64,000 bases of DNA from a virus: positions 1-64,000 of the IMG/VR virus record IMGVR_UViG_3300025030_000005. The stretch is one strand, 5' to 3'. Both the position numbers and the translations under genes were made by a program. The notes below the pieces were generated by a model. The model worked only from the letters and a program-made list of their open reading frames with translations, searched no databases and was not told the origin of the DNA. This document shows positions 2,443-32,703 of the stretch, one piece after another (positions within the stretch are counted from its first letter, which is position 1; the number at the start of each line of letters is the position of its first letter).

Positions 2443-3165
2443 ATGAAAAAGACCCTGAAACTGAACGTAGCCGCCAACCCCGCCGACCACTTCCAGACCG
2501 TGAAGGTTTCCGTCATCGAGCAGTCGCATCGCGGTGGCAACTTCGGAGCAGCCTCGACAAGCTTCATCGCCTCCAATGGCGTGAGGATCACCTCCTTGGG
2601 GTACCCCAGCATCTCTATCGACGCGTTTCGCACCGAGCTGTACGTTCGCGGTGACGGTACCGCCGCCGACAACCGCGAGATCCTCGTCCCGGTGGCCAAA
2701 CTCCCCGCCATCGAAGCGGCTGTGGCCGAGTACAACAAGAAGTTCACCTTCACCCCGAAGACTCCGGCCGCCGTGCAGCATCTGAAGGTCAACGTCGAAG
2801 GCAACCCGGCTGACCACTTCCAGACCGTGAAGGTCACCGTCCTGAGCCAGACCCACATCCTCACCGACTTCGGCACCGAAACCGCCAAGGGCTGCGGCGA
2901 GTTCGTCCACGGCAAGATACGCCTCTGCTCCTCCTCGCAGGACAACGTAGGCTTCGGCACCTACGTTCCCAGCAGGCTGAAGGCACAGGGTGTCGTCGGT
3001 ACCTTCTACGTGGGTCGCAACGTCTGGCAGCCCGCCAGCACCTTCACCGGCACCATCCCCGCCAACCTGGCAAAAGACCTGGGCGACGCCATCAACGCCT
3101 ACAACAAGAAGTTCGCCGCTCCTGTCCCGGTGGCTCCGGCTGGCTGCTCCTTCATCCTCGGGTAA
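2443..3165 (+). CDS. HIKxR-EQxH-YNEW family protein, tandem two-domain member with CSFILG tail
   Basis: Two modules in one ORF. First: LKLNVAANPADHFQTVKVSVIEQSHRGGNFG...AAVAEYNKKF. Second: LKVNVEGNPADHFQTVKVTVLSQTHILTDFG...AINAYNKKF. Pro/Ala linker, then C-terminal CSFILG. GC-rich. Confidence 0.85.
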   Translation: MKKTLKLNVAANPADHFQTVKVSVIEQSHRGGNFGAASTSFIASNGVRITSLGYPSISIDAFRTELYVRGDGTAADNREILVPVAKLPAIEAAVAEYNKKFTFTPKTPAAVQHLKVNVEGNPADHFQTVKVTVLSQTHILTDFGTETAKGCGEFVHGKIRLCSSSQDNVGFGTYVPSRLKAQGVVGTFYVGRNVWQPASTFTGTIPANLAKDLGDAINAYNKKFAAPVPVAPAGCSFILG

Positions 3166-3183
3166 AATCGAGGCGTAGTGAAG

Positions 3184-3211
3184 CTGCGGGGCTTGCGCCC
3201 CGCAGTATTTT
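3184..3211 (+). terminator. rho-independent terminator
   Basis: CTGCGGGGC-TTGC-GCCCCGCAG stem-loop followed by TATTTT. Confidence 0.8.
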
Positions 3212-3233
3212 GCTACTCACAAGGAGGTACGAA

Positions 3234-3374
3234 ATGGCTAACTTGACCTTCAACATCGGCGGCGTGCGCGTAAGTGTAGGCGCTACCGGCGTTAGGCTGG
3301 GTGTGAAGAAGGGGGACTTTTATGTATCCAAGAGGGTAATAAAGGCTTCGCCCAAAGGAAAGGTGAAAAAATGA
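3234..3374 (+). CDS. small basic protein (46 aa), possibly DUF4236-like
   Basis: SD aaggagg 6 nt upstream of the ATG. Stop overlaps the next start (ATGA). G-[VR]-x-[VL] repeats: GGVRVSVGATGVRLGVKKG. Confidence 0.45.
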   Translation: MANLTFNIGGVRVSVGATGVRLGVKKGDFYVSKRVIKASPKGKVKK

Positions 3375-4873
3375 GCGTGATAACTGAATTGGTGTTGGAG
3401 TTTGAAAACGATACCGAGAGGAAAAACGCGCTCGCTCTACTGCTTGCGGCAGGAATTCCGATGTATGATGCGGGAAGTGATTTTGAAGAAGCTTGGAGCT
3501 ATTGGAGAAAGCTAACCTCCTACCACTCTTTGAAGGTGTACTCCAACAAGAGATATATGGTTCCTAGACACCCTATCCAAATTACTAACCTTCTAAGAGG
3601 ACAAAAGAAAGTCACCCTCAAGGAAGCCCTGATCGCACTCGGCTACACCGGCCACGCCGTAGGAACAGCCGTGACCTATCCCAATTACCCTGACTCCAGA
3701 GGAGTGGTGGAAAAGGAAATGGATGACTACGGAAAACATCAAGTTCACTGGAGCGGAGGCTCCATAAACAGAGTTCCGGCTGACAAGCTGGTTCCTATCA
3801 AAAAACCTGTGGAGGTGAAACCGCCAACAAAAGAGGAGGACGAATCCATGAAAAGTAACAGAGCACCAGACGCGGTAGTGGTGCGGCTTCGTAGCCAGTC
3901 GGAAAGGAGAGAGGCAGTAGAAGCACTCTTCCGTGCTGGGTTCAAGAGCCGCGCCAAAGACCGACCAACGGCAGCGATACAGATGAAGAAGTGGGACACT
4001 GAAAAGTACCCCAACCTCAACGTCTCGTTCGCAGCAAAGGAGTTCAGCGGCAGTAACACCACCGACCTGCAGTTCGTCTCGCTGGTTGTCCTTCTGGACA
4101 AGCTGGATGACCTGAGAGCTGCAGCTGCTAGGGCAGCTGTTATGCCTAAGGCACAAGCCGCAGCTGCACCTAAAAAGGCGACTGCAAATGCGGCTAGCAA
4201 GGTCGAGGACCTCGCGCCGAAGCAGATGTACATCTGTGACAATGCAGGCGTCTGCGGGAACGGCATCTGTCATCACAGAAAGGCGCACGAGCACAGAGCA
4301 GGCTGCGCGGTGTCCCATCACGGGTATTACCGCTGCTTGGCTGGTTCTGTGTGCATCACCGTCGAAGAAGCAGCTCGCCGCTCCGGCGCAGCAGCAACCC
4401 AGGCCCATAGCGCAGTATCGACCACAACCGCAGCTCCGGCTGCCAACAAAAAGGAGAAGACTGAAATGAAAAAGACCATCATAGAGAACGTCAAGAATGC
4501 AGCAACCGAAACCGTTTCCACCCAGAAGGGCCTCCTCGTCCAGGCCGCCACCCTCGAAGCCGGCTCCATCCTGCGTGAGCAGGTCGTCGGTACCATCGGC
4601 CCCAAACTCCCCATGATGCTGCGGGGCTACGCTGCCACCCCGCTGGGCCAGGTTGTCATGATGAACCTCGTCGGCGTAGCCATCCGCACCGCCAAGCCGA
4701 ACCTCGCTTCCGATCACCCGATCCTCGCCGTCACCGACGCGGCTGTAGTGGGTGCCTACCAGGACGCCATTAAGCAGCTGAACATCGACAAGATGCTCTC
4801 CGACCTGTTCGAGAAAGGTCCCCTGGCCAAAGCCATGGCCAAGCTCGAAGCCGAGCCGGCCAAGAAAAAGTAG
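3371..4873 (+). CDS. hypothetical protein (500 aa), Ala-rich linkers and a Cys/His cluster
   Basis: Long GC-rich ORF. CDNAGVCGNGICHHRKAHEHRAGCAVSHHGYYRC cluster. An internal SD+ATG at 4466 may give a nested 135-aa product. Confidence 0.7.
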   Translation: MSVITELVLEFENDTERKNALALLLAAGIPMYDAGSDFEEAWSYWRKLTSYHSLKVYSNKRYMVPRHPIQITNLLRGQKKVTLKEALIALGYTGHAVGTAVTYPNYPDSRGVVEKEMDDYGKHQVHWSGGSINRVPADKLVPIKKPVEVKPPTKEEDESMKSNRAPDAVVVRLRSQSERREAVEALFRAGFKSRAKDRPTAAIQMKKWDTEKYPNLNVSFAAKEFSGSNTTDLQFVSLVVLLDKLDDLRAAAARAAVMPKAQAAAAPKKATANAASKVEDLAPKQMYICDNAGVCGNGICHHRKAHEHRAGCAVSHHGYYRCLAGSVCITVEEAARRSGAAATQAHSAVSTTTAAPAANKKEKTEMKKTIIENVKNAATETVSTQKGLLVQAATLEAGSILREQVVGTIGPKLPMMLRGYAATPLGQVVMMNLVGVAIRTAKPNLASDHPILAVTDAAVVGAYQDAIKQLNIDKMLSDLFEKGPLAKAMAKLEAEPAKKK

Positions 4874-4960
4874 CTAGATCCAAGATGTAGTGTGTTCTTA
4901 GAAATGCTGGGAGAGAAATCTTCCAGCATTTTTATAGACCACATCACTGAGAGGTATGAA

Positions 4961-5323
4961 ATGAAACGATTAAAATTACGTGGAGAGTACCTGCCTAGCA
5001 GAAAGATGGTGAAGATATCTGTGGTTGAAATGACCCATATGGAAGATAGCTTTGGAGGCAGGAACGGAGATGGGAGTAAAAACTTTGGCGGTCTTGCGTT
5101 TGTATCCACTAACGGTGCTAGGCTAAGGTCTGATGAATCACATAGTCAGTTTGAAAATAAGTGCACTGATGCGTATTTCAGTACAGGGCCGGATTCTTTT
5201 ACGATGTACTTGCCTAGGACTCAAGGGTACCTTGACCGATATTATTCCATTTCTACCTTAGATGAGTGGAAAAGAATAAAAGAAGCTGTTTTGGAATATA
5301 ACCACGTATTCAAGGATCTATAA
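4961..5323 (+). CDS. HIKxR-EQxH-YNEW family protein
   Basis: MKRLKLRGEY..VKISVVEMTHMEDSFGG..WKRIKEAVLEYNHVF. Start moved from 4892 to ATG 4961 behind SD gagagg. Confidence 0.8.
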   Translation: MKRLKLRGEYLPSRKMVKISVVEMTHMEDSFGGRNGDGSKNFGGLAFVSTNGARLRSDESHSQFENKCTDAYFSTGPDSFTMYLPRTQGYLDRYYSISTLDEWKRIKEAVLEYNHVFKDL

Positions 5324-5325
5324 AT

Positions 5326-5703
5326 ATGAAAAAGCATATTAAGATAAAAGGGACTTTAATCCCTCCTGAAGAGGTATGCGAGAATGGCATATATTTTACT
5401 GCCAGAGTTAAGGTTGAGATAATTGAACAAACTCACGCGGGTAGGGACTTTGGGCCTAGCATAGAACCTCACGTAACAAAGAGATGGGGTCCTATTGCTT
5501 TTGGTGGCGGCGAGTACAAACTATTCAGTGAAGATAACAGCGGAGCCATTGGGATTTATGAGGCGCATAGTACCTGCAGAGAGAAGTATTGGTTTGTGTT
5601 AGGGGATAAGAAAGAATCCTTTGAACCTACTTTCTTGTTATCTCTTGTGCACTGGGAGGAGCTTAAAAGGTTGGTTAAGGAATACAACGAATATTATGCT
5701 TAG
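5326..5703 (+). CDS. HIKxR-EQxH-YNEW family protein
   Basis: MKKHIKIKGTL..VKVEIIEQTHAGRDFG..WEELKRLVKEYNEYY. Confidence 0.85.
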   Translation: MKKHIKIKGTLIPPEEVCENGIYFTARVKVEIIEQTHAGRDFGPSIEPHVTKRWGPIAFGGGEYKLFSEDNSGAIGIYEAHSTCREKYWFVLGDKKESFEPTFLLSLVHWEELKRLVKEYNEYYA

Positions 5704-5712
5704 GAGATAATT

Positions 5713-6060
5713 ATGCGAAAGCATATTAAGATAAGAGCTGAGCTTGTAAAGATGTTAGAAGGGGATATTAGAGTTAAGGTTACCTTTATGGAGCAGAGCC
5801 ATTTTGGCGGTGATTTTGGGAATAGACCATATAACGATAAACTAAATTTAGCGCTGGGAGTATTTCATCCCGGACGTGTAAGGTTGATAAGTAGGGATGC
5901 CTGTGATGTTTCCCATATTGGAAACTTTTATAAGGGAGACACAATTAGGGTGTGGGTTCCTGAAGATCCAGATCACTTAGGTGCATTCTTTTATATGAAC
6001 TTGGATGTTTACAAATTGTTTAAAGAGACTGTCGAAGAGTACAACTCTACAGAATTTTAG
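5713..6060 (+). CDS. HIKxR-EQxH-YNEW family protein
   Basis: MRKHIKIRAEL..IRVKVTFMEQSHFGGDFG..LFKETVEEYNSTEF. Confidence 0.85.
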   Translation: MRKHIKIRAELVKMLEGDIRVKVTFMEQSHFGGDFGNRPYNDKLNLALGVFHPGRVRLISRDACDVSHIGNFYKGDTIRVWVPEDPDHLGAFFYMNLDVYKLFKETVEEYNSTEF

Positions 6061-7501: not shown

Positions 7502-7888
7502 ATGAAAAAGCACATAAAGCTTCAGGCTAGGTTGGTACATCAAGACGGGAAGTTTAAAGTTTTGCTAAAACTGCTCAGCTTATCCCACGCAGAAGTTGAG
7601 TTTGGTCTAAGGGATTTGGGAAATAGGGCACTAGAGATAACCTTCAACCTAGCCTCGGGAGCCATAGAAAGGCCTGACATATCCGATGTTCCGAAGTTAA
7701 GACTAGCTTCTTTTGGTAATTTAGGAATTGAATACAATGCCTTAGGCGTGTTATACTTCCCAGGAGATACTAGCAGAAAAGATCTAATGGATCATGAAAT
7801 AATTGTATCCACCGAAGCCTACAAAAAGATAAAAAGAGCAATAGAGCTGTACAATACATATGATTTCCCAGAGGAGGATGTACAATGA
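7502..7888 (+). CDS. HIKxR-EQxH-YNEW family protein (divergent)
   Basis: MKKHIKLQARL..KVLLKLLSLSHAEVEFG..YKKIKRAIELYNTY. ATG 3 nt after the gltX stop, SD gaggtag. Confidence 0.75.
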   Translation: MKKHIKLQARLVHQDGKFKVLLKLLSLSHAEVEFGLRDLGNRALEITFNLASGAIERPDISDVPKLRLASFGNLGIEYNALGVLYFPGDTSRKDLMDHEIIVSTEAYKKIKRAIELYNTYDFPEEDVQ

Positions 7889-9014: not shown

Positions 9015-9383
9015 ATGAAAAGACATCTGAAGATTCGCGGGACACTGAGCAAAGATAAAAATACAGTGACAGTAGAGATATTATCTATGAGTCATTTTGG
9101 TAATGAGTTTGGAAATGATATTCCCTGGGTAGCTCCACAATACGAAAATAACTGGTTAACCAATTACTATAAGTGCTCTTTCAACCTCCCTGAAAGGTTA
9201 TCTTTAGTGTCACATCCATGGATGAACCCTATGGTAACCATAACTCCAAGTAAGACTCTAATGGTATGTTTACCTTTTACTCATACGAAATCAATTAACT
9301 GCATCTTTAAGGTTAAAATAGAGCATTGGGATAGCATAAAGAAGTTAGTCAAGGCATACAATGAGTGGGGAGATAATCAGTAG
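9015..9383 (+). CDS. HIKxR-EQxH-YNEW family protein
   Basis: MKRHLKIRGTL..VTVEILSMSHFGNEFG..WDSIKKLVKAYNEWG. Start moved from 8997 to ATG 9015. Confidence 0.85.
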   Translation: MKRHLKIRGTLSKDKNTVTVEILSMSHFGNEFGNDIPWVAPQYENNWLTNYYKCSFNLPERLSLVSHPWMNPMVTITPSKTLMVCLPFTHTKSINCIFKVKIEHWDSIKKLVKAYNEWGDNQ

Positions 9384-9489: not shown

Positions 9490-9843
9490 ATGCCTAAGCA
9501 CATAAAGATAAGGGCTGAACTTTCTGCCGACCGTAAAGTGGTATCCTGTGTTGTGTTGGAGATGTCGCATAAAGGAACCGAGTTCAGCTCCAAAGCAATG
9601 AAAGGAGCAAGCGAACACCACACAGGATGTTTTCTACATGGCCCTATACTTCTATGCGCTGTAGCTGGGTCAGGCCAACCTTACTGCGAGCCTCGTAAAA
9701 AGCTGTCCTGCCCTTTACTTACTCATTATGTGGTCATGCCTAGAGGCTGTACCAATAACCCATTCAGTATTCCCGTAGAAGTTTGGCCTAGCGTAAAAGC
9801 TGCTTTCGTAGCCTATAACAAATGGGGAGAGTCACAACAATGA
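9490..9843 (+). CDS. HIKxR-EQxH-YNEW family protein (Cys/His-rich subtype)
   Basis: MPKHIKIRAEL..VSCVVLEMSHKGTEFS..HHTGCFLH..WPSVKAAFVAYNKWGESQQ. Confidence 0.85.
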   Translation: MPKHIKIRAELSADRKVVSCVVLEMSHKGTEFSSKAMKGASEHHTGCFLHGPILLCAVAGSGQPYCEPRKKLSCPLLTHYVVMPRGCTNNPFSIPVEVWPSVKAAFVAYNKWGESQQ

Positions 9844-10178
9844 AAAGACATTTAAAAATACGTGGTGTGCTATCCCCAGACAGACAAAGCGTTACTGCTT
9901 ACATTGTCAGTCAGTCTCATTTTGGGAAGGAATTTGGCATGGGATATGATAGATTCCCTTCAGAGGGTCCTATTTTCTTTAGAACTCCTGCAGGTTTTAT
10001 TTATAGTTATCCATACAGCTCAGGAGCCTCGGTATGGAATACAGAGTTTGCATTTGTACTGCCAGGAACCCCCACAGTAGACGGTAAAGAAGTGGGTATG
10101 AAGGGTTTGACACTAGTTCAATGGAAGGTATTTAAACAATTAGTAGAAGCATACAATGAGTGGGGTGCTTCACAATGA
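9840..10178 (+). CDS. HIKxR-EQxH-YNEW family protein
   Basis: MKRHLKIRGVL..VTAYIVSQSHFGKEFG..WKVFKQLVEAYNEWGASQ. ATGA start/stop overlap. Confidence 0.85.
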   Translation: MKRHLKIRGVLSPDRQSVTAYIVSQSHFGKEFGMGYDRFPSEGPIFFRTPAGFIYSYPYSSGASVWNTEFAFVLPGTPTVDGKEVGMKGLTLVQWKVFKQLVEAYNEWGASQ

Positions 10179-10528
10179 AAAGACATATTAAAATACGCGG
10201 TGTTCTATCAAAAGACAAACAGAGTGTTGATGTTTATGTAGTAGACCAAACGCATTTTGTAGAAGATTTTGGTATGCCTAATCAAAAACATCCAGATAAT
10301 GGGCACATTTTTTTCAGAACTGATGCAGCTTTGTTGTATAGTTCTATGCACGTCTCAAGTGCTGAAGCGTGGGGCTACAGTCCAATGGTAACTGCTTTTA
10401 GATTTCCCGGAACCAAATCTGAACATGCAATTAAATTTAATGGGCACATAAATCTAACGCAGTGGAAAGATTTAAAAGAAGCAGTTGCGGCATATAATCA
10501 ATGGGGAGAAGAACAAGGAGACGTTTAA
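10175..10528 (+). CDS. HIKxR-EQxH-YNEW family protein
   Basis: MKRHIKIRGVL..VDVYVVDQTHFVEDFG..WKDLKEAVAAYNQWGEEQ. ATGA overlap. Confidence 0.85.
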   Translation: MKRHIKIRGVLSKDKQSVDVYVVDQTHFVEDFGMPNQKHPDNGHIFFRTDAALLYSSMHVSSAEAWGYSPMVTAFRFPGTKSEHAIKFNGHINLTQWKDLKEAVAAYNQWGEEQGDV

Positions 10529-10529
10529 A

Positions 10530-10910
10530 ATGCCAAAACATATTAAAATAAGAGCCAGTCTTTCTCCTAAGATGAAGACAGTTAGACTTCATCTTATACA
10601 GCAGAGTCATGCTGGACCAGAATTTGGTCCTGAAAAGTATAACCGTGTGAACTGGTATGGACAACCTACTGTAGTGGGATCTAAATTCTCTCACAGAAGA
10701 GTACGCATAGCCAGCAATGAACTTGACCATGCTAGAAACTGTCTTTATTTGTATAATGATATATATGATGACCTCATTACTTTATGGGTGAGTCATAAGC
10801 CTGTAGCAGAAATGAAAAATAAGACTACAGCCGGCGTTCACATAAAACATTGGCCACAAGTGAAAGCAGCCATAGAAGCATACAACGCGTGGGGAGCCAC
10901 TCAGGAGTAA
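10530..10910 (+). CDS. HIKxR-EQxH-YNEW family protein
   Basis: MPKHIKIRASL..VRLHLIQQSHAGPEFG..WPQVKAAIEAYNAWGATQE. Confidence 0.85.
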   Translation: MPKHIKIRASLSPKMKTVRLHLIQQSHAGPEFGPEKYNRVNWYGQPTVVGSKFSHRRVRIASNELDHARNCLYLYNDIYDDLITLWVSHKPVAEMKNKTTAGVHIKHWPQVKAAIEAYNAWGATQE

Positions 10911-10913: not shown

Positions 10914-11255
10914 ATGCCAAAACATATGAAAGTAAGGGCCGAGTTAATCGACGATAAGGCTAACGTTAAAGTAACCATCCTTGAAATGTCTCATATGGGA
11001 AATAAATTTAGTGCTATAGACAAGACTGGATTAGAAGGAAGACATACCGGCTGCTTTGCGCATAAGGATGCAGTACTATGTGCCCTGAAGTCATCATCTG
11101 GAATACGCATTGAGAATGCATTCTGGAATATGGGTGAGCTGATGTTAGTAATGGGCACGCTGTCAGTTGGGAGGTCAATAACCCTTTCGTTAGGGTCATG
11201 GGCTAAAATTAAAGCTGCCATACAAGCCTACAATGAGTGGGGTGCGACTCAATGA
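10914..11255 (+). CDS. HIKxR-EQxH-YNEW family protein (Cys/His-rich subtype)
   Basis: MPKHMKVRAEL..VKVTILEMSHMGNKFS..RHTGCFAH..WAKIKAAIQAYNEWGATQ. Confidence 0.85.
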   Translation: MPKHMKVRAELIDDKANVKVTILEMSHMGNKFSAIDKTGLEGRHTGCFAHKDAVLCALKSSSGIRIENAFWNMGELMLVMGTLSVGRSITLSLGSWAKIKAAIQAYNEWGATQ

Positions 11256-11581
11256 AAAGACATATTAAAGTTAGAGCTAGGCTAACTTCGGATAACTCGG
11301 AAGTTCTCCTAACCATATTAGAACAGAGTCATTTTAGGTATAATTTTAGCGAAAAAGGACAACAGTCTCCTGAATTTCATAATGGAGTCTTTGAGCGCGG
11401 GAGAGTTCTCCTTCTAGGAGCGAGTAACACCAACGCACTCAACGACACGTTCTGGGTGCATAATAAATTCTGCGTAGTAATAGACCAAATTAATTACCCA
11501 ATTGTAACTATCTCCACAGAAATGTGGGTAGAAGTTAAGAAGGCCATACAAGCCTACAATAAGTGGGGTGAATCACTATAA
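11252..11581 (+). CDS. HIKxR-EQxH-YNEW family protein
   Basis: MKRHIKVRARL..VLLTILEQSHFRYNFS..WVEVKKAIQAYNKWGESL. ATGA overlap. Contains a degenerate stem-loop copy at 11285-11304. Confidence 0.85.
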   Translation: MKRHIKVRARLTSDNSEVLLTILEQSHFRYNFSEKGQQSPEFHNGVFERGRVLLLGASNTNALNDTFWVHNKFCVVIDQINYPIVTISTEMWVEVKKAIQAYNKWGESL

Positions 11582-13582: not shown

Positions 13583-14059
13583 ATGGCTAAGTTTATAAAG
13601 TACAAGGCTAGGCTCATGCCTGATTTGAATACTGTCAGAGTGGTGATAACTGAGCAGAGCGATAGTGTAGGGTCATTTAGTAACAGCAGTTGGTATGAGT
13701 TTGTTGCTAAAAATGGAGTTGCTCTAATATCATTTTCCAGACCATTTTTCTATAGTCCATCTAGGATATACGTGCAAGGAAACAGCAAAGAAAGAAATAA
13801 CGATCCTATTTTTCTTGAAGTTGAAGATTATAGAAGGTTCAAAGAAGCCGTATTAGAGTACAATGAATACTACTCTGACATGGCTATAGCAGAACGTAAA
13901 GCATCAGCTGAGAGGTGGGCCAGTGTAGTATCAAATCCTCTGTATAGTTTTATGCGGGAAACTCCCGTAAATAAAAATGTAAAAGTAAATCGTGATTCCA
14001 ACACAGAGCCTTGGAAACAAAAGAGAAACCAACGTGGGTTTGCCTACAAGATAAGATAG
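13583..14059 (+). CDS. HIKxR-EQxH-YNEW family protein with C-terminal extension
   Basis: MAKFIKYKARL..VRVVITEQSDSVGSFS..AKNGVALISFS..IYVQG..YRRFKEAVLEYNEYY, plus about 50 further aa. Confidence 0.8.
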   Translation: MAKFIKYKARLMPDLNTVRVVITEQSDSVGSFSNSSWYEFVAKNGVALISFSRPFFYSPSRIYVQGNSKERNNDPIFLEVEDYRRFKEAVLEYNEYYSDMAIAERKASAERWASVVSNPLYSFMRETPVNKNVKVNRDSNTEPWKQKRNQRGFAYKIR

Positions 14060-14444: not shown

Positions 14445-14921
14445 ATGAAAAAGATCAAGCTGCAGGTAGTCAACAACCAAAACTTCAACAAAGTGCTCGT
14501 GAAAGTAACCGAGCAGACCAGCCGGTACTACAACTTCGGTGGTAACGTCGCAGGCGACAGCCGCAAGTTCCAGGCCAAAAACGGCCTGATTCTTGCTTCC
14601 AACGAGCGTCCGGCACGTGACGCAGACGACTCCAGCATCGTCTGGGTTCGCGGCTACGACGCCTCCAAGGACGACTCCAGCATCGTCCTGACCCGTGCTC
14701 AGTTCGACAAACTGGGTGCTGCTGTGCGTGAATACAACGAGTTCTGGAGTGCCTCCGCAGTGTACGACAGGCAGCTCATCGCACAGCGTGCACAGGCAGC
14801 AGCTCGTCTGGCAGCTCAGCAGCTCGAAGCAGCTCGTCAGGCAGAAGCTCTGCGTCGTGCAGCTGCTGCAGCCCCGCGCTATGCTGCATCTGCAAATTCT
14901 TGCTCGTACATCATCGGCTAA
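14445..14921 (+). CDS. HIKxR-EQxH-YNEW family protein with Ala/Gln-rich tail ending CSYIIG
   Basis: MKKIKLQVV..VLVKVTEQTSRYYNFGG..AKNGLILASN..VWVRG..FDKLGAAVREYNEFW. GC-rich. Confidence 0.8.
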   Translation: MKKIKLQVVNNQNFNKVLVKVTEQTSRYYNFGGNVAGDSRKFQAKNGLILASNERPARDADDSSIVWVRGYDASKDDSSIVLTRAQFDKLGAAVREYNEFWSASAVYDRQLIAQRAQAAARLAAQQLEAARQAEALRRAAAAAPRYAASANSCSYIIG

Positions 14922-15486: not shown

Positions 15487-15786
15487 ATGAGAAGGCATAT
15501 AAAGTACCGAGCTAAATTAAACCCATCACTCAAAGAGGTTACTGTGGTAATCACAGAGCAGACCCACCGAGGAGACAACTTTACTCCTAGAGGTAGTCTT
15601 TTCAGGAGTTCTAGCAGATTCCGACTAGAAAGCTGCGCTACTCCTGCTTGGGAAGGTGATTCTGATGAAATGTACCTCAGAGGGTACCGTGAAGCATCCG
15701 ATGATCGAGAGTTCACTATGCCTCTGCATGTCTACTCGCAATTCAGGGAAGCCGTGAAAGAGTATAACGAAAAGTACAAAGAGTAG
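15487..15786 (+). CDS. HIKxR-EQxH-YNEW family protein
   Basis: MRRHIKYRAKL..VTVVITEQTHRGDNFT..MYLRGYREASDD..YSQFREAVKEYNEKY. Confidence 0.85.
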   Translation: MRRHIKYRAKLNPSLKEVTVVITEQTHRGDNFTPRGSLFRSSSRFRLESCATPAWEGDSDEMYLRGYREASDDREFTMPLHVYSQFREAVKEYNEKYKE

Positions 15787-21458: not shown

Positions 21459-21776
21459 ATGAAACAACATTTAAAAGTAAGGGCTAAGCTGTCGTCTGAC
21501 CGTACTAAGGTACATGTTATTGCGGTTGAGCAAACTCACTTTGGTGGTAAGTTCGGCTCAGGCACTGTTCCAGGTACTTTTAGAGGGATAGGAGAATTCG
21601 TACATAATAATGTAGCTTTAAGGTCCGCCACAACTTGTGCGTTCTATCCTTCATATGGGCCTATGCGTTTATATTTCTCTAGCCTTAGCGGACCACCTAT
21701 AACAATACCAATAAAATATTGGGAAGAGATCAAGGAAGCTATCGAAGCCTACAATGAGTGGGGAGAAACCCAATGA
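21459..21776 (+). CDS. HIKxR-EQxH-YNEW family protein
   Basis: MKQHLKVRAKL..VHVIAVEQTHFGGKFG..WEEIKEAIEAYNEWGETQ. SD ggagg 7 nt upstream. Confidence 0.85.
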   Translation: MKQHLKVRAKLSSDRTKVHVIAVEQTHFGGKFGSGTVPGTFRGIGEFVHNNVALRSATTCAFYPSYGPMRLYFSSLSGPPITIPIKYWEEIKEAIEAYNEWGETQ

Positions 21777-22135
21777 AACATTTAAAAGTGAGAGCAGAGC
21801 TTTCTAAATGCAGAACTAAAGTAAAACTTACCATACTAGAACAGACGCATTTGTCAAGTGAATTTGGTAAATATGAACCTTGTGACACTATGTTCAAGGG
21901 CCATACTTACACTTTTAGGCACAAATCAGTAAGGATTATCAGTGAAGCCTCACCTTCGTACATAAATAGAGGACCGTATAGTACTGACAGAATGGTGTTA
22001 GGAGTAACCTCTTGGGTAAGGGTCAGAGGATGTGTTACAGCTAGAGATAGTGCAGTTGTAGATATTCCTATAAAAGAATGGCCGGGTATAAAAGAAGCTA
22101 TTGAAGCCTACAATGAATGGGGAGCTAACCAATGA
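21773..22135 (+). CDS. HIKxR-EQxH-YNEW family protein
   Basis: MKHLKVRAEL..VKLTILEQTHLSSEFG..WPGIKEAIEAYNEWGANQ. ATGA overlap. Confidence 0.85.
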   Translation: MKHLKVRAELSKCRTKVKLTILEQTHLSSEFGKYEPCDTMFKGHTYTFRHKSVRIISEASPSYINRGPYSTDRMVLGVTSWVRVRGCVTARDSAVVDIPIKEWPGIKEAIEAYNEWGANQ

Positions 22136-22422
22136 ACCATATAAAGATAAGAGGAAGGTTGATCAAACAGGGAGGACTTCAACGCGTTGAAGTCAATGTG
22201 GTAGAGTTCGTATATAACGTATGCTCAGAAGACTTCTATGTCTCTGTTATCTTGCCTAGCGGATACAACATAAAACAGGGAACCATATTTGGAGCCTGCA
22301 TTGGAGACGATACTTTATGGTTATGCCATGGAAAAGGAGACAAGTTCGTAGTTAAACTTGAAGAATGGGAACTTATAAAAATAATTGCTGAGGAGTTTAA
22401 CGCTCTTGATGGAGGGGTATAA
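22132..22422 (+). CDS. HIKxR-EQxH-YNEW family protein (most divergent member)
   Basis: MNHIKIRGRL..VEVNVVEFVYN..WELIKIIAEEFNAL. ATGA overlap. The EQxH core is lost. Confidence 0.65.
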   Translation: MNHIKIRGRLIKQGGLQRVEVNVVEFVYNVCSEDFYVSVILPSGYNIKQGTIFGACIGDDTLWLCHGKGDKFVVKLEEWELIKIIAEEFNALDGGV

Positions 22423-22423: not shown

Positions 22424-22720
22424 ATGAAAAGAAGATTGCGACTGAAAGCAGTTCTAATACCTCCGGATAAGTGCTTAGTTAGTGTAGTAGAGCAAACTCA
22501 TTTTGATAAGGACTTTTCTGGTATTGGTAACATGTTTCAGAGCCGAAGAGGAAACTTAGCCGTAGCGTCACACGGCTCGTACATATCTGGATTTCCCAGA
22601 GATACCTTGTGGTTGTGTAGTACTCCTACCGACTTAGGTAGGTCCACCTTTATCATGGAAGCTAGTAAATTAGGGTATGTGAAATCTATAATAAAAGAAT
22701 ACAACGAATACTACAAATAA
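22424..22720 (+). CDS. HIKxR-EQxH-YNEW family protein
   Basis: MKRRLRLKAVL..CLVSVVEQTHFDKDFS..LGYVKSIIKEYNEYY. Start moved from 22385 to ATG 22424. Confidence 0.8.
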   Translation: MKRRLRLKAVLIPPDKCLVSVVEQTHFDKDFSGIGNMFQSRRGNLAVASHGSYISGFPRDTLWLCSTPTDLGRSTFIMEASKLGYVKSIIKEYNEYYK

Positions 22721-24366: not shown

Positions 24367-24693
24367 ATGAAACAGCATATTAAGGTTAAGGCTGCTCTGG
24401 AAAAGAATAATAAATGGGTGGCAGTGCAGATTCTTGAGCAGAGCCATAGAGCTACGAAGTTTGGAAATAGCATATATGACAATATAGTTGGGGAATTTGT
24501 TTATAAGGATGCTATACTAAGATCTTGCGACTGTCCTGCATTTTACAGTTATGGTGCTGATAAAGGTGGGCAACTATACCTTAGAGGTAGGATGCCTGAT
24601 CAAGATGATCGTATAGTACGGCTGACGCTAAAGCAGTGGGCAGCAGTTAAAGAGGCCATTAAAGCGTACAACGAGTGGGGAGCCAGCTTATGA
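24367..24693 (+). CDS. HIKxR-EQxH-YNEW family protein
   Basis: MKQHIKVKAAL..VAVQILEQSHRATKFG..LYLRGRMPDQDD..WAAVKEAIKAYNEWGASL. Confidence 0.85.
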   Translation: MKQHIKVKAALEKNNKWVAVQILEQSHRATKFGNSIYDNIVGEFVYKDAILRSCDCPAFYSYGADKGGQLYLRGRMPDQDDRIVRLTLKQWAAVKEAIKAYNEWGASL

Positions 24694-24998
24694 AACAACA
24701 CATCAAGGTGAGAGCAATCTTATCTAGTAATAAAGAGTCAGTAGAGCTGGTAATACTTGAGCAGACTCATAGAGGTGATCTCTTTGGGAATGTACGTAAC
24801 CCTAGAGAAGGAACCTTCAAACATGAAGGGTACCGCCTTAAGTCATGCGAGTTTCCTGATAAATATGATTTTGGAGAGATCTATTTAAGAGGCCGTGAGA
24901 CTGCCAGTGATAATATACCTATAACTATCAGCATACAAGAATGGCCTATGCTAAAAGCCGCGCTTAAAGCATACAATGAGTGGGGAGAAAGCCAATGA
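24690..24998 (+). CDS. HIKxR-EQxH-YNEW family protein
   Basis: MKQHIKVRAIL..VELVILEQTHRGDLFG..IYLRGRETASDN..WPMLKAALKAYNEWGESQ. ATGA overlap. Confidence 0.85.
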   Translation: MKQHIKVRAILSSNKESVELVILEQTHRGDLFGNVRNPREGTFKHEGYRLKSCEFPDKYDFGEIYLRGRETASDNIPITISIQEWPMLKAALKAYNEWGESQ

Positions 24999-25306
24999 AA
25001 CAACATATCAAGGTAAGGGCAAAGCTAATTAAGGATATAGTTGAGGTTAGCGTACTTGAGCAATCCCATTTCGCAAACTACTTTGGTAGCACTAGGACTG
25101 AATATGCTGGCGGACTGTTCTTCGCATCTAACGGGTTTTGCCTAGCCTCCAACTACAGGCCTGAGTGGGTAAAACATAAAGACCGTCTGTACTTAAGAGG
25201 TACTTCCACTGCGAATAACCAGGACACAGCGAGAGTTTCCATTAAAGACTGGGCTAAAATTAAGCAGGCCATATTTGAGTATAATGAATGGGGAGAAAAA
25301 CAATGA
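24995..25306 (+). CDS. HIKxR-EQxH-YNEW family protein
   Basis: MKQHIKVRAKL..VEVSVLEQSHFANYFG..ASNGFCLASN..LYLRG..WAKIKQAIFEYNEWGEKQ. ATGA overlap. Confidence 0.85.
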   Translation: MKQHIKVRAKLIKDIVEVSVLEQSHFANYFGSTRTEYAGGLFFASNGFCLASNYRPEWVKHKDRLYLRGTSTANNQDTARVSIKDWAKIKQAIFEYNEWGEKQ

Positions 25307-30755: not shown

Positions 30756-30974
30756 ATGACCGATATAAAAGAAGAACTGTGGGTAACTAAAGAAGGAACT
30801 GCCATACCTATTTCCGATATGTCGGAAGAGCACCTCAGAAATACCCTCAAAATGATCGTAAAGCAGCTTAGAAGGGGAGATCTTACACGACTAGGGTATC
30901 ACCATGGCCGACTTAACTTAGCTAGGGCTATAGCTGACATAGAGGAGGTTGAGCTATGTCAAAGAAGCATATAA
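30756..30974 (+). CDS. hypothetical protein
   Basis: SD aggag. Contains a stem-loop copy at 30811-30828 (ISDMSEE). Confidence 0.5.
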   Translation: MTDIKEELWVTKEGTAIPISDMSEEHLRNTLKMIVKQLRRGDLTRLGYHHGRLNLARAIADIEEVELCQRSI

Positions 30975-31324
30975 AACTGAGAGCACAACTCACGCATGAT
31001 AAAGAACATGTTATCATAAATACTATTCAAATGACTCACACTCTTGCAGGCTTCGGCACTAAAGAGGATGGACATGACTGGAGCAGTCTAGGCTATCCTA
31101 CGTATTCTTTTGTTCATGGCGATGTGCGTATTTATAATTTGGTAACTGGGTTCCACGCTACCTCAGTGTATGCGGCAGACAGCAGATCAGAGCGCCATCT
31201 AGGAATAAACCACTGGGTATTTATAGGGACAAAAGACAGCGATCCTTCCCGGCCTATACCTCTGGATATGTGGAAAAAGATAAAATCAGCAGTAGCAACC
31301 TACAACGAATATTTTAAGGAGTAG
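30956..31324 (+). CDS. HIKxR-EQxH-YNEW family protein
   Basis: MSKKHIKLRAQL..VIINTIQMTHTLAGFG..WKKIKSAVATYNEYF. Confidence 0.8.
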   Translation: MSKKHIKLRAQLTHDKEHVIINTIQMTHTLAGFGTKEDGHDWSSLGYPTYSFVHGDVRIYNLVTGFHATSVYAADSRSERHLGINHWVFIGTKDSDPSRPIPLDMWKKIKSAVATYNEYFKE

Positions 31325-31327
31325 ACT

Positions 31328-31696
31328 ATGCCAAAGCATATAAAGATAAGGGGTAAGCTGACTCCCGATAGAAAGCGGGTTATTGTTGAATTGCTAGAAA
31401 GGACGCATTACAGTAGCAAATTTGGAGACTCTAAAACTAGTAAAGGTTGGGCTCACGGGCCTATGGGATTTCACATAAGAGGCCCTATTAGGATCTACAG
31501 CCTCAGTTCTTCAGTGAAGGGAGCTATAGTGTACGAAAAATCTGGATCTGAAAATTACGGAACAGGCGTGCGCAAATGGGTACATCTGGGCGCGGCTGGG
31601 ATTAACTCCGACCCTAAAGGCACCTTAACACTAGAAGAATGGGCAGGGCTTAAACAAACCGTAAATGATTACAATGAATATTTTAAGGATAAGTAA
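31328..31696 (+). CDS. HIKxR-EQxH-YNEW family protein
   Basis: MPKHIKIRGKL..VIVELLERTHYSSKFG..WAGLKQTVNDYNEYF. Confidence 0.8.
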   Translation: MPKHIKIRGKLTPDRKRVIVELLERTHYSSKFGDSKTSKGWAHGPMGFHIRGPIRIYSLSSSVKGAIVYEKSGSENYGTGVRKWVHLGAAGINSDPKGTLTLEEWAGLKQTVNDYNEYFKDK

Positions 31697-31705
31697 AATT
31701 ATTTT

Positions 31706-31790
31706 GTTTATATAAAAGATTTTACTTGACAAATTTCAATTTCTGTGGTATAATGTGAATCGTTCCGCTGGTCGGAACGATATACCTATA
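31706..31790 (+). repeat. promoter + 5' hairpin cassette (direct-orientation partner of 9385-9470)
   Basis: Matches the inverted 9.4-kb copy in a 28-nt block and a 45-nt block. Contains hairpin ATCGTTCCG-CTGGT-CGGAACGAT at 31759-31781, at the predicted transcript 5' end. Confidence 0.85.
31726..31754 (+). promoter_or_regulatory. consensus sigma70-type promoter
   Basis: TTGACA-17 nt-TATAAT with TGg extended -10. Confidence 0.75.
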
Positions 31791-31819
31791 TTATAGAATA
31801 CCAGAGAGGACAGATACCA

Positions 31820-32062
31820 ATGCCATTACCAACCCCACAGACTAAAGATGTACTACAAGGATTGATACTGATTACCTCTGGTATATCCGTTTATCTAATG
31901 GCAGGTAAGAATCATAAGAGAGCATTTATAGTTAGCTTAGCTTGTCAGCCTCTATGGTTCTACATAACATACAACTCAGGTCAATGGGGTATGTTTATTC
32001 TATCCATATGGCATACCATCAATCAAGTAAGAGGCTACATAAACCACAGAGATGAATATTAA
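31820..32062 (+). CDS. small membrane protein
   Basis: Three hydrophobic helices. First ORF after the promoter. Confidence 0.55.
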   Translation: MPLPTPQTKDVLQGLILITSGISVYLMAGKNHKRAFIVSLACQPLWFYITYNSGQWGMFILSIWHTINQVRGYINHRDEY

Positions 32063-32077
32063 AGGAGGACATTAACA

Positions 32078-32341
32078 ATGGCAAGAAAACCTACAAGATA
32101 CCTTACTAAAGAATTGATTCAGAAGGATGAGTTTGTACTGGAGGATAGCGTGTTTAGGAAGGTGCCTCAGTTTCCTTCTTACTTTGTGTCTGACCGTGGA
32201 GAAGTGATCTCTACCTGCGGAAAGCTTAAGATACTTCATGGGTGTATGATAGGCAGCACCAGAAAGTACGCTCTGCATAATCGTATAGACAAGCCTAAGC
32301 CGATGTCAGATGATCTTATCTGCGCTATGGCGTTTGATTAG
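32078..32341 (+). CDS. NUMOD4-like fragment (homing-endonuclease remnant?)
   Basis: FRKVPQFPSYFVSDRGEVIS resembles the NUMOD4 motif. At 87 aa it has no nuclease domain. Confidence 0.4.
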   Translation: MARKPTRYLTKELIQKDEFVLEDSVFRKVPQFPSYFVSDRGEVISTCGKLKILHGCMIGSTRKYALHNRIDKPKPMSDDLICAMAFD

Positions 32342-32349
32342 GAGGGTGT

Positions 32350-32703
32350 ATGCGACATATAAAACTGAGAGCTAGGCTTGTATCTAAAGATAGGTGCATG
32401 TTAAGTGTTGTTGAGCAGTCACATAGAAATGATAGGTTTGGTGGTCATTTTGGTAATGTTCCTTTTATATTTTACCATGACAAGATTGCATTTGCTTCTG
32501 ATGGTAGTCCTGCTTGTTACAACAGCGGCCTTTCTCATCTCGTGACTAGCTGGAAAGTCCCTCCCGAGATTGATCTGTGGGTGTTCCTGAGGGGACGTAG
32601 CTTTATGTATGACGATAAAGAAGTACCCGTATCAGCATCTAGATGGCCAGAAATAAAAGTCGCCGTAGAAGCCTACAATAAATTTTACAAAGACAGAGAA
32701 TAA
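32350..32703 (+). CDS. HIKxR-EQxH-YNEW family protein
   Basis: MRHIKLRARL..CMLSVVEQSHRNDRFGG..WPEIKVAVEAYNKFY. Confidence 0.85.
   Translation: MRHIKLRARLVSKDRCMLSVVEQSHRNDRFGGHFGNVPFIFYHDKIAFASDGSPACYNSGLSHLVTSWKVPPEIDLWVFLRGRSFMYDDKEVPVSASRWPEIKVAVEAYNKFYKDRE

What the first reader, a model, noticed from the sequence alone, without database searches (positions are those of the whole stretch)
2443..32703. Unrecognised small-protein family expanded to 27 genes (28 domains, about 10 kb) in tandem arrays across the early region
Seen: every member (about 100-125 aa) has three shared elements. These are a basic N-terminal strand [KR]HIK[IV]R[AG]xL, a second strand about 10-15 aa later ending V.V.[IV][LI]EQ[ST]Hx2-3F[GS], and a C-terminal helix W..[IV]K.A[IV].[AE]YN[EK][WY]. 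The 40-70 aa in between are highly variable, with recognisable subtypes. One subtype has NG..L.S...P...LYLRG....D[ND] (2443, 13583, 14445, 15047, 15487, 24367-25306). Another has HTGCF.H and extra Cys (9490, 10914). The genes lie at 2443 (two domains in one ORF), 4961-6060 (3), 7502 (1), 9015-11581 (7), 13583-16179 (5), 21459-22720 (4), 24367-25306 (3), 30956-31696 (2) and 32350 (1). Summing my coordinates gives about 10 kb, roughly 16% of the window. I cannot place the motif combination in any named domain family. Inference: a conserved scaffold with a hypervariable middle, strong copy-number expansion and early-region placement resembles viral host-interaction or counter-defence multigene families (accordion-type expansion). 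A set of binders or decoys with different specificities is plausible, but function is unknown.
Basis: partly seen in the sequence, partly recalled or inferred. Interest (0 to 1): 0.9.

Follow-up and report, generated by a model that had tools for sequence, protein, structure and literature searches.

The report
Unnamed 27-gene phage protein family
An uncultured groundwater phage spends about a sixth of this 64-kb stretch on 27 diverged copies of one small, well-folded protein that matches no named family or solved structure, and that probably acts as a set of early-expressed binding modules aimed at different targets in the host cell.

Summary
Exactly 27 plus-strand genes (28 domains, 9,969 nt, 15.6% of the window) belong to one family. 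A profile built from 8 members finds the other 19. The full profile scores every member at 50 bits or more, and the best unrelated ORF at 4.5 bits.

The family has no match in Pfam, PHROGs, NCBIfam, PADLOC or PDB sequences. Two confident AlphaFold models (pLDDT 85 and 97; six strands plus a C-terminal helix) have no Foldseek match in PDB or BFVD.

It is not private to this phage. 872 50%-identity clusters exist in metagenomes, all seen in phage-like early or replication contexts. Some proteins carry 2-5 fused repeats.

Related 50-113 kb phages carry arrays in the same slots between collinear core genes, with different copy numbers.

The paralogs are old (at most 47% identical). Orthologues are under purifying selection (omega 0.09-0.35) but evolve several times faster than their neighbours. 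The change is concentrated in the 40-72 aa middle segment.

This is therefore a long-lived birth-and-death multigene family, not a recent accordion amplification.

Function is not shown. My best inference (about 0.4) is a repertoire of cytoplasmic binder or inhibitor modules for host takeover or counter-defence. The main rival is a nucleic-acid-binding role.

The parts
2443..3165 (+). Two-domain family member (domains about 2443-2748 and 2749-3162) with an Ala/Pro linker and the C-terminal tip CSFILG. It is a GC-rich outlier.
   Evidence: HMM 172 bits, two domains of 86.8 and 83.8 bits. GC3 0.85. The tip motif is shared with 24 homologues. Orthologous two-domain genes occur in relatives (P0002, P0151).
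4961..5323 (+). Family member, 120 aa
   Evidence: 98.2 bits. Found by the 8-seed HMM at E 1.5e-18.
5326..5703 (+). Family member, 125 aa
   Evidence: 100.2 bits. Seed sequence.
5713..6060 (+). Family member, 115 aa
   Evidence: 95.5 bits. Seed sequence.
7502..7888 (+). Family member, 128 aa, divergent
   Evidence: 70.7 bits. E 2.3e-13 with the seed HMM.
9015..9383 (+). Family member, 122 aa. First gene of the seven-gene array.
   Evidence: 105.5 bits. E 6.6e-23.
9490..9843 (+). Family member, 117 aa. Cys-rich HTGCF.H subtype (H-x2-C-x2-H-x5-C).
   Evidence: 106 bits. Motif shown.
9840..10178 (+). Family member, 112 aa. ATGA overlap with the preceding gene.
   Evidence: 95.8 bits. Overlap shown.
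10175..10528 (+). Family member, 117 aa. Its closest paralog is the 9840 gene (46.6% identity).
   Evidence: 112.7 bits. Identity.
10530..10910 (+). Family member, 126 aa
   Evidence: 111.5 bits.
10914..11255 (+). Family member, 113 aa. HTGCF.H subtype.
   Evidence: 111.2 bits. Motif shown.
11252..11581 (+). Family member, 109 aa. ATGA overlap with the preceding gene.
   Evidence: 109.3 bits. Overlap shown.
13583..14059 (+). Family member, 158 aa. Ancestral-type middle segment plus a basic C-terminal extension.
   Evidence: 103.4 bits. Alignment.
14445..14921 (+). Family member, 158 aa. Ancestral type, Ala-rich linker and C-terminal tip CSYIIG. GC-rich.
   Evidence: 106.7 bits. GC3 0.64. Tip shown.
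15047..15442 (+). Family member, 131 aa. Ancestral type, Ala/Pro linker and C-terminal tip CSYVIG. GC-rich.
   Evidence: 105.9 bits. GC3 0.64. Tip shown.
15487..15786 (+). Family member, 99 aa. The shortest member, of ancestral type, and the one modelled.
   Evidence: 103.9 bits. AlphaFold model with pLDDT 96.9 and pTM 0.88.
15838..16179 (+). Family member, 113 aa, with a TTG start
   Evidence: 98.2 bits. Start and SD motif shown.
21459..21776 (+). Family member, 105 aa. First gene of the four-gene array.
   Evidence: 114.3 bits.
21773..22135 (+). Family member, 120 aa. ATGA overlap with the preceding gene.
   Evidence: 119.9 bits. Overlap shown.
22132..22422 (+). Most divergent family member, 96 aa. 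It lacks the EQ[ST]H motif.
   Evidence: 50.2 bits. E 7.8e-7 with the seed HMM.
22424..22720 (+). Family member, 98 aa
   Evidence: 80.6 bits.
24367..24693 (+). Family member, 108 aa. First of three translationally coupled genes that abut the DNA ligase gene.
   Evidence: 117.4 bits.
24690..24998 (+). Family member, 102 aa. ATGA overlap with the preceding gene.
   Evidence: 114.0 bits. Overlap shown.
24995..25306 (+). Family member, 103 aa. ATGA overlap with the preceding gene.
   Evidence: 118.8 bits. Overlap shown.
30956..31324 (+). Family member, 122 aa
   Evidence: 98.9 bits. Seed sequence.
31328..31696 (+). Family member, 122 aa. Modelled.
   Evidence: 104.4 bits. AlphaFold model with pLDDT 85.4 and pTM 0.83.
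32350..32703 (+). Family member, 117 aa. Just upstream of a perfect sigma-70 promoter and the DnaB-like helicase gene.
   Evidence: 96.8 bits. Promoter at 32707-32735.

Best explanation
These 27 genes encode a phage-specific, previously unnamed small domain of about 100 aa. It has a long N-terminal beta-hairpin, four short strands and a C-terminal helix that ends in an invariant Tyr-Asn.

Shown here: it is a real, translated-looking, purifying-selected protein family. It has been duplicated in tandem many times, over a long period, inside the early/replication arm of a roughly 113-kb siphovirus-type phage from anoxic groundwater. Related phages gain and lose copies at fixed slots.

Inferred: the hairpin and helix form a constant scaffold. 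The 40-72 aa between them differs from copy to copy and forms a binding surface. The phage therefore makes, early in infection, a repertoire of soluble cytoplasmic binders, each aimed at a different host macromolecule. The most likely role is to inhibit or decoy host defence or takeover targets. Tandem fusion of 2-5 domains in other phages, and translational coupling of neighbouring copies here, suggest that the modules act multivalently or as hetero-oligomers.
For: - The family is real and selected. Orthologue omega is 0.09-0.35. The AlphaFold models are confident, with pLDDT 85.4 and 96.9.
- It is expressed like ordinary genes. Every copy has an SD motif, and seven junctions are ATGA overlaps in which the YNEWGE codons supply the GGGGAG ribosome-binding site of the next copy. 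Consensus sigma-70 promoters lie in the region.
- It sits in an early, cytoplasmic context. The genes are on the same strand as the replication, repair and tRNA-repair genes and interleaved with them. None lies in the tail module. The sequences show no N-terminal signal-like or membrane segment.
- It has a scaffold plus a variable surface. Core identity is 35-39% against 16% for the middle, and the middle varies in length. Between orthologues, dN in the middle is four times that of the core.
- It shows arms-race-like dynamics. Family orthologues are 59-94% identical, where flanking genes are mostly 91-98% identical (79-98% overall). Median omega is about 0.26 against about 0.07. Copy number differs at the same slots in L005, L008, L010 and L012. 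Distant phages have a single copy (L016) or one five-repeat gene (L019).
- No conserved catalytic-looking set survives across the paralogs. Only one Phe and one Asn are invariant, and the RG and DN motifs are lost in about 60% of the copies.
- The family was found only in phage contexts. 872 clusters exist, and every one seen with a source is metagenomic and unnamed. A motif scan of 185,579 species genomes found no member.
Against: - No target, interaction or phenotype is known.
- No site or gene shows omega above 1.
- Several polar residues are strongly conserved across the wide family: Gln 92%, Thr/Ser 94%, His 88%, Ser 90% and Tyr-Asn 97-99%. They could mark a shared ligand or nucleic-acid site rather than a purely structural core.
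- Most copies are basic (22 of 28 have pI above 8.6). This fits nucleic-acid binding at least as well.
- The paralogs are ancient and retained, which could equally reflect subfunctionalised housekeeping roles.
- The host is unknown, so no defence repertoire can be matched to the paralogs.
Confidence: 0.4

Rival explanations
1. The domain binds nucleic acid, in the manner of SSB or PC4-like proteins. An exposed basic beta-sheet face binds ssDNA or RNA. The members with an Ala/Pro linker and a conserved C-terminal tip recruit partner proteins, as the SSB tail does. The paralogs would coat or regulate different phage nucleic-acid intermediates during replication, recombination or translation.
For: - 22 of 28 copies have pI above 8.6, against 45% of other small ORFs.
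- The first hairpin carries a conserved basic pattern, K-H-I-K-I-R.
- The genes are interleaved with ligase, helicase, primase and polymerase genes.
- No canonical SSB was recognised among the ORFs that were scanned.
- The domain-linker-tip layout occurs in 3 window genes and 24 homologues.
- There is a weak local likeness between the last strand plus helix and PC4 'KGISLnpEQWsqLK', and a recurring weak hit to PDB 2jro.
Against: - The hhalign probability against PC4 is only 4.9% over 23 columns.
- No PC4, OB or SSB Pfam hit appears in 154 scanned members even at E of 1 or less.
- PC4, SSB and OB structures are not credible Foldseek matches (TM at most 0.34).
- 22% of the wider family is acidic.
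- Twenty-seven diverged copies with a variable middle are hard to explain for a generic nucleic-acid coat.
Confidence: 0.2
2. The domain binds a small molecule or is a small enzyme. The conserved polar residues (Gln-Thr-His at the end of strand 2, Phe-Gly, Ser, Arg-Gly, Asp-Asn, Tyr-Asn) form one pocket. It might work as a sponge for host immune signalling nucleotides or as a modifier of a metabolite. The window's derived copies would be neofunctionalised or inactive versions.
For: These polar positions are highly conserved over 205 domains from many phages. The ancestral type is compact, with short conserved loops, and is modelled at pLDDT 96.9. Known phage sponges are small early proteins (my own knowledge). 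One below-threshold Pfam hit to a cyclic-dinucleotide receptor domain was seen in the homologue P0008 (E 0.009).
Against: - The Arg-Gly and Asp-Asn motifs are lost in about 60% of the window copies, and Gln or His in several.
- Only Phe and Asn are invariant. That pattern fits a folding core.
- The Cap15 hit occurred in one protein only and is below the curated cut-off.
- There is no structural match to any known sponge or enzyme.
Confidence: 0.12
3. The proteins are structural or packaged components. They assemble, possibly as hetero-oligomers, into a phage-built intracellular or virion-internal structure. The C-terminal tip would act as a targeting peptide.
For: Adjacent copies are translationally coupled, which favours stoichiometric production. 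Covalent 2-5 domain repeats occur in homologues. A conserved C-terminal hydrophobic tip follows a flexible linker.
Against: All copies lie in the early/replication arm and none lies in the tail region examined. Copy number varies freely between relatives, which is unusual for structural parts. Only 3 of 28 domains carry the tip.
Confidence: 0.1
4. The family is a selfish or neutral duplicating cassette. It spreads within phage genomes without a host-directed function.
For: The family is scattered in many intergenic slots, and homing endonuclease genes lie nearby in this phage and its relatives. Copy-number turnover is seen.
Against: - Purifying selection acts on all tested orthologues.
- There is no nuclease or recombinase motif or Pfam hit.
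- There are no flanking repeats and no recent identical copies.
- The fold is confident and conserved across 872 clusters.
Confidence: 0.05

Closest known systems
Multigene families of large eukaryotic DNA viruses (African swine fever virus MGF110/360/505; poxvirus ankyrin and kelch host-range families). Comparison from my own knowledge.
   Same: Dozens of diverged paralogs of one small or medium domain lie in tandem arrays. Copy number differs between related viruses. The genes sit among early or accessory genes. They evolve faster than core genes. These points are shown here.
   Different: There is no sequence or structural relationship. The host is prokaryotic. The domain is about 100 aa. 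The arrays are interleaved with replication genes rather than placed at genome termini. The function here is untested.
Poxvirus K3L-type genomic accordions (recent adaptive gene amplification). Comparison from my own knowledge.
   Same: Tandem copies of a candidate host-interaction gene, with copy number differing between relatives.
   Different: Accordions are near-identical, transient copies. Here the closest pair is 46.6% identical at protein level, no long DNA repeats exist, and many duplications predate the split of the related phages.
Tandem arrays of immunity proteins of polymorphic toxin systems (SUKH and Imm families; Zhang et al., Biol Direct 2012, PMC3482391, which surfaced)
   Same: Arrays of small, diverged, soluble paralogs. 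Each is thought to neutralise a different partner protein.
   Different: No Imm or SUKH Pfam model is matched. There is no adjacent toxin gene. The family was found only in phage-like contigs.
PC4/Sub1-type ssDNA-binding fold, including phage PC4-like proteins (Pfam PF02229; PDB 1pcf)
   Same: A curved antiparallel sheet is followed by a C-terminal helix. The last strand and helix start share a similar sequence pattern ('i.vp.eeW..iK' against 'GISLnpEQWsqLK'). Both are linked with replication genes.
   Different: The hhalign probability is 4.9%. There is no PF02229 hit. There is no PC4 structure among the Foldseek matches. This domain has six strands and about 35 extra residues.
Small early phage anti-defence proteins (anti-CRISPRs, Ocr, the Tad and Acb sponges). 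Comparison from my own knowledge.
   Same: They are small, soluble and phage-restricted, sit in early regions and turn over quickly.
   Different: Those are usually single-copy, mutually unrelated genes. Here one fold is reused 28 times. There is no hit to the anti-defence-related models in Pfam (one AcrF31 singleton at E 0.015). PADLOC, which holds models of host defence-system proteins rather than anti-defence proteins, also gave no hit.

Membership tests
Any Pfam-A, PHROGs, NCBIfam or PADLOC family | A significant profile-HMM match to the family model | tested here: not met
   There were no hits for the window members. Across 116 homologues there were only unrelated singletons at E above 0.003. 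No family was matched by more than one member.
Any fold with a solved structure, or a BFVD viral model | A Foldseek match with a significant E-value and TM of 0.5 or more | tested here: not met
   The best E-values were 0.55 and 0.44 against PDB and 0.2 against BFVD. TM was at most 0.34, for models with pLDDT 85.4 and 96.9. AFDB and ESM Atlas were not available.
PC4/Sub1-like ssDNA-binding domain | A PF02229 match or profile-profile homology | tested here: not met
   There was no PF02229 hit at E of 1 or less in 154 proteins. hhalign of the family profile against human PC4 gave probability 4.9% over 23 columns.
PC4/Sub1-like ssDNA-binding domain | A four-stranded curved sheet plus helix that superposes on 1pcf | tested here: not met
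   PC4 entries (1pcf, 2c62, 4usg, 4bhm, 5a4n) are absent from the 50 best Foldseek PDB matches shown for either model.
PC4/Sub1-like ssDNA-binding domain | Binding of single-stranded DNA | not testable with these tools
   This needs EMSA or anisotropy assays with purified protein.
Genomic accordion (recent adaptive amplification) | Near-identical tandem copies at DNA level | tested here: not met
   The maximum paralog identity is 46.6% at protein level. DNA repeats are limited to motif-coding stretches of 31-105 nt at 60-88% identity.
Birth-and-death viral multigene family | Diverged paralogs in tandem, and copy number varying between related genomes at syntenic positions | tested here: met
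   The slots between collinear core genes hold 5/4/5, 4/2/2, 3/0/1 and 0/3/1 copies in the window, L005 and L008 respectively. Adjacent copies are often each other's best match.
Birth-and-death viral multigene family | Members are under selection as proteins | tested here: met
   Omega is 0.09-0.35 in 8 orthologue pairs between L005 and L006.
Host-interaction / counter-defence family | Positive (diversifying) selection at the interaction surface | tested here: inconclusive
   In the middle segment dN is 0.243 against 0.059 in the core, but omega is 0.28 against 0.17, both below 1. Only one genome pair was available and dS is partly saturated.
Host-interaction / counter-defence family | A demonstrated host target, or a phenotype on defence-carrying hosts | not testable with these tools
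   The host is unknown, the phage is uncultured and there are no expression data.
RiPP precursor families with a conserved leader and hypervariable core (prochlorosin-like) | The variable segment is C-terminal and unstructured, and a modifying enzyme lies nearby | tested here: not met
No lanthionine synthetase or cyclodehydratase was found among the ORFs that were scanned.

The most novel reading that the evidence does not exclude
The domain is a new protein fold that phages use as a modular, evolvable adaptor. The invariant hairpin/helix patch docks onto one common host or phage machine. The variable middle captures different host proteins. Translationally coupled or fused copies work as multivalent hetero-oligomers. 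The Ala/Pro-linker plus C-x-x-[IV]-[IV]-G tip is a new docking or targeting signal. This would be a previously unknown class of phage host-takeover system, widespread in uncultured phages.
Probability: 0.2. Interest if true: 0.85.

Novelty: new variant of a known kind. Interest (0 to 1): 0.66.

Why it matters
Phage genomes are tightly packed, and large paralog families are rare in them. Here one phage commits at least 29 genes, about 10 kb, to a single unnamed domain.

The domain folds confidently but has no counterpart in Pfam, PHROGs, PDB or BFVD. It recurs in at least 872 sequence clusters from uncultured phages.

If the copies are target-specific inhibitors, the family would be a rich source of new anti-defence or host-takeover proteins. 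It would also offer a natural scaffold for engineered binders.

If instead the domain binds nucleic acid or a ligand, it would define a new fold for that role.

Either way it deserves a family definition and a solved structure. The conserved C-terminal tip motif is a separate, testable lead.

Tried and rejected
- Megablast of 7 kb and 16 kb of the window against GenBank phages found no match. tblastn of one member against the phage collection found none. PolA is at most 28% identical to that of any cultured phage, so no cultured relative exists.
- A single-sequence search of the 5.8-billion-protein collection found only the query itself. Profile searches through the word index found only unnamed metagenomic proteins.
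- A back-translated search of 185,579 species genomes with the close-paralog alignment found nothing. A degenerate EQTHRGxxFG DNA pattern gave 33 chance-level hits, and none encodes a member. That pattern covers only a minority of the family, so absence from cellular genomes is suggestive, not proven.
- Two alignments were too diverse for the locus finder. The GluRS-based search of IMG/VR found no relative.
- Rejected as chance or non-coding, given the HMM separation, SD motifs, omega below 1 and the AlphaFold confidence.
- The DGR, RiPP and recent-duplication readings were rejected.
- PC4 homology was considered because of a motif likeness and the weak 2jro hit. It is not significant.
- Within-population variation was uninformative. 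The other contigs of this phage are 99.95-100% identical to the window.
- No tRNA genes or Rfam families occur in the window.
- Two literature searches for phage paralog arrays returned nothing relevant beyond the polymorphic-toxin immunity analogy.
About 21 kb of the genome therefore remains unscanned for further members.

Full report
**Observation**

The window is part of a 113,132-bp contig from a groundwater metagenome (ENA ERZ27254732). Identical or near-identical pieces occur in runs SRR1658462 and SRR1658465 of project PRJNA268031.

A profile built from eight obvious members found 19 further ORFs, with E-values from 1e-28 to 1e-5. A profile built from all 28 domains scored the 27 ORFs at 50-172 bits. 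The best unrelated six-frame ORF scored 4.5 bits.

The genes sum to 9,969 nt, or 15.6% of the window. All-against-all BLASTP found no second paralog family.

The three motifs are profile-level features. Strict regular expressions match only 10-18 members. One Phe (in 'FG') and one Asn (in 'YN') are invariant.

Mean pairwise identity is 39% in the N-terminal hairpin region, 35% in the last strand plus helix, and 16% in the 40-72 aa between them. Two more members lie about 2 kb upstream of the window on the same contig. None lies in the 21.7-kb stretch (L056) that overlaps the 3' end of the window and extends about 10 kb beyond it into the tail-gene region.

**Are they genes?**

- Every copy has a Shine-Dalgarno-like motif 8-14 nt upstream of its start.
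- Seven junctions are ATGA overlaps. In these, the codons for the conserved ...YNEWGE tail of one copy (AAT GAG TGG GGA G) provide the GGGGAG ribosome-binding site of the next copy. Part of the C-terminal conservation may therefore be constrained at DNA level.
- In two closely related IMG/VR phages (L005 and L006), eight orthologous pairs have dN/dS of 0.09-0.35.
- AlphaFold2 gives pLDDT 85.4 (pTM 0.83) for gene 31328, using only the 28 paralogs as the alignment. It gives pLDDT 96.9 (pTM 0.88) for gene 15487 with 116 homologues.
- The fold is a long beta-hairpin, four short strands and a 17-19 residue C-terminal helix.

**What it is not**

- No member or homologue matches Pfam-A, PHROGs, NCBIfam or PADLOC.
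- Profile searches of PDB sequences give nothing better than E 0.5.
- Foldseek with both models finds nothing significant in PDB (best E 0.55 and 0.44, TM at most 0.34) or in BFVD (best E 0.2).
- A likeness between the last strand plus helix and the PC4 'KGISLnpEQWsqLK' element led me to test PC4 directly. hhalign probability is 4.9% over 23 columns, and PC4 structures are absent from the Foldseek lists. It remains a lead, not a relationship.

**Distribution**

An exhaustive HMMER scan of 1.84 billion cluster representatives found 872 proteins at E of 1e-3 or less, and 249 at 1e-10 or less. Most are 95-130 aa single domains. Some carry two to five repeats.

Every hit whose source was listed is metagenomic and unnamed, apart from one 'hypothetical protein' from a Bacteroidetes MAG fragment.

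All the contexts I examined are phage-like early or replication regions. A distant phage has a single copy (L016), and another has one five-repeat gene (L019). Scans of 185,579 species genomes found no member, but the patterns used cover only part of the family.

Over 205 domains the consensus is MKKHIK..A.L.PD...V.V.I.EQTHRG..FG....F.ASNG..L.S...P......LYVRG.....DN...I.vP...W..IK.AVE.YNE. Conservation is Gln 92%, Thr/Ser 94%, His 88%, Phe 98%, Ser 90%, Tyr 97% and Asn 99%. The window's other copies are derived: about 60% of them have lost the Arg-Gly and Asp-Asn elements.

**Evolution**

The closest paralogs are 46.6% identical (9840 and 10175). Neighbours are often each other's best match, which points to tandem duplication. 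About half of the copies have their best match in another phage, even though the relatives were only partly sampled.

DNA repeats are limited to motif-coding stretches at 60-88% identity.

Relatives of 50-113 kb share collinear core genes at 35-66% identity and carry family arrays in the same slots, but with different copy numbers. In the window, L005 and L008 respectively, the counts are:
- 5, 4 and 5 in the slot before the zinc-ribbon protein;
- 4, 2 and 2 in the slot after the 20076 homologue;
- 3, 0 and 1 in the slot before the ligase;
- 0, 3 and 1 in the slot after the ligase.

Another relative has five genes in 20 kb, where the window has about 17.

Between L005 and L006, family orthologues are 59-94% identical, while flanking genes are mostly 91-98% identical (79-98% overall). 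Median omega is about 0.26 against about 0.07. dN in the middle segment is 0.243 against 0.059 in the core. dS is also higher there (0.86 against 0.35), so omega is 0.28 against 0.17.

This is a long-lived birth-and-death family with relaxed or locally adaptive evolution of the middle segment. It is not a recent accordion, and positive selection is not demonstrated.

**Context**

The plus-strand arm carries:
- a CCA-adding enzyme (13-744, 5' end cut by the start of the window);
- an RNA ligase (1753-2292);
- a GluRS-like synthetase (6117-7499);
- an M28-like peptidase;
- an ATP-dependent DNA ligase, a DEAD/ResIII helicase, a DnaB-like helicase and a primase;
- an HslV-like peptidase;
- PolA, an exonuclease, SbcCD and NrdD.

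The minus-strand arm, from about 58.9 kb onward, carries lambda/T5-style siphovirus tail genes. This layout supports 'early/middle region', but no expression data exist.

**Mechanism**

Shown: a selected, folded, phage-restricted domain with a constant hairpin/helix core and a variable middle. It has been duplicated and turned over at fixed slots in the early arm. It is produced with translational coupling, and in other phages it is fused into multi-domain chains.

Inferred (confidence about 0.4): a repertoire of cytoplasmic binding or inhibitor modules with different targets, used for host takeover or counter-defence.

The strongest rival (about 0.2) is nucleic-acid binding. In its favour:
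- 22 of 28 copies are basic;
- the first hairpin carries a conserved K-H-I-K-I-R pattern;
- a subset has an SSB-like domain-linker-tip layout.

Weaker rivals are a ligand or enzyme pocket formed by the conserved polar residues (about 0.12), structural or packaged components (about 0.1) and a selfish cassette (about 0.05).

**Unexplained extra**

Three window genes (2443, 14445, 15047) and 24 of 164 homologues end in an Ala/Pro/Lys-rich linker followed by C-x-x-[IV]-[IV]-G at the exact C-terminus. These three genes are also compositional outliers, with GC3 of 0.64-0.85 against 0.25-0.47 for the other members. I know of no described motif that fits.

**Verdict**

The family is new as a protein family and, by the searches available here, as a fold. 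As a kind of system it is a phage variant of the viral multigene-family theme.

Noticed in passing
window 1461, 8263, 14922, 16445, 20980, 24334, 30541, 30812, 37918 (exact); 11287, 58875 (one mismatch): The palindrome AAC-TTCCGA-N4-TCGGAA-GT occurs 9 times exactly, against 0.08 expected by chance. At 8 of the 10 sites read it lies just after a stop codon, or at most 8 nt downstream of one. At 6 of them it lies 10-25 nt before the ATG of the next gene. Several copies precede family genes (15047, 24367). It may be an RNA-processing or stability hairpin, or an operator.
   Followed up: partly
window 9385-9471 (minus orientation) and 31705-31791 (plus); also 22746-22774 and 32707-32735: An 87-nt inverted repeat (93% complementary) carries a perfect extended -10 sigma-70 promoter (TTGACA-N14-TGTGGTATAAT) and a downstream hairpin. 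The copy at 9385-9471 sits between family genes 9015 and 9490 and points antisense to gene 9015. Two further perfect promoters lie directly after family arrays.
   Followed up: partly
window 2443-3165, 14445-14921, 15047-15442; homologues P0004-P0152: There is a conserved C-terminal tip, C-x-x-[IV]-[IV]-G-COOH, after an Ala/Pro/Lys-rich linker. It occurs in 3 window genes and 24 of 164 homologues. No known signal was recognised.
   Followed up: partly
window 2443-4873, 6117-7499, 14445-15442, 16484-19414: GC-rich islands (GC3 0.64-0.85) sit in a genome with GC3 of about 0.25-0.48. They cover the three tip-bearing family genes, the DUF7566 protein, GluRS, the zinc-ribbon protein and the M28-like peptidase. 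Relatives lack such islands. This suggests horizontal acquisition or a special codon usage.
   Followed up: partly
window 13-744, 1753-2292, 6117-7499; relative L012 14805-18578: The phage has a tRNA and translation toolkit: a CCA-adding enzyme, an RNA ligase and a full-length class I Glu/Gln-tRNA synthetase. A related phage adds RtcB, a PRPP-synthetase-like protein and NAPRTase (NAD salvage). No tRNA genes occur in the window.
   Followed up: partly
window 9490-9843 and 10914-11255: Two paralogs share H-x2-C-x2-H-x5-C (HTGCF.H....C), and gene 9490 has extra Cys residues. This may be a zinc site grafted into the variable middle. It was not seen in other homologues.
   Followed up: partly
L021 6931-7299 and 7316-7672 (contig upstream of window position 1): Two further family members lie about 2 kb upstream of the window, so the genome has at least 29 genes and 30 domains. 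About 21 kb of the contig further upstream could not be fetched.
   Followed up: partly
window 2335-2910 (minus) versus 2443-3165 (plus): The ENA gene call for this contig places a 191-aa gene on the minus strand here. HMM hits, GC3 of 0.85 in the plus frame and orthologues show that the plus-strand 240-aa two-domain gene is the real one.
   Followed up: yes
window 35366-36181, 39085-39873, 57188-57559; L012 10751-12007: Homing-endonuclease-like genes (an endonuclease with a faint LAGLIDADG signal, and HNH types) flank PolA and NrdD. A GIY-YIG gene interrupts the equivalent region of a relative. This indicates active mobile-element traffic in the early arm.
   Followed up: no
window 38486-39034 and 18128-19414; 54411-55202: The phage encodes an HslV-like peptidase, an M28/M20-like peptidase and a ClpP-like protease. 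That is an unusual set of proteases for a phage early region.
   Followed up: no
window 2455-2514 versus 2782-2841: The two domains of the 2443 gene share 82% DNA identity over 60 nt at their N-terminal hairpins. This is far more than the rest of the two domains, and suggests internal gene conversion.
   Followed up: no
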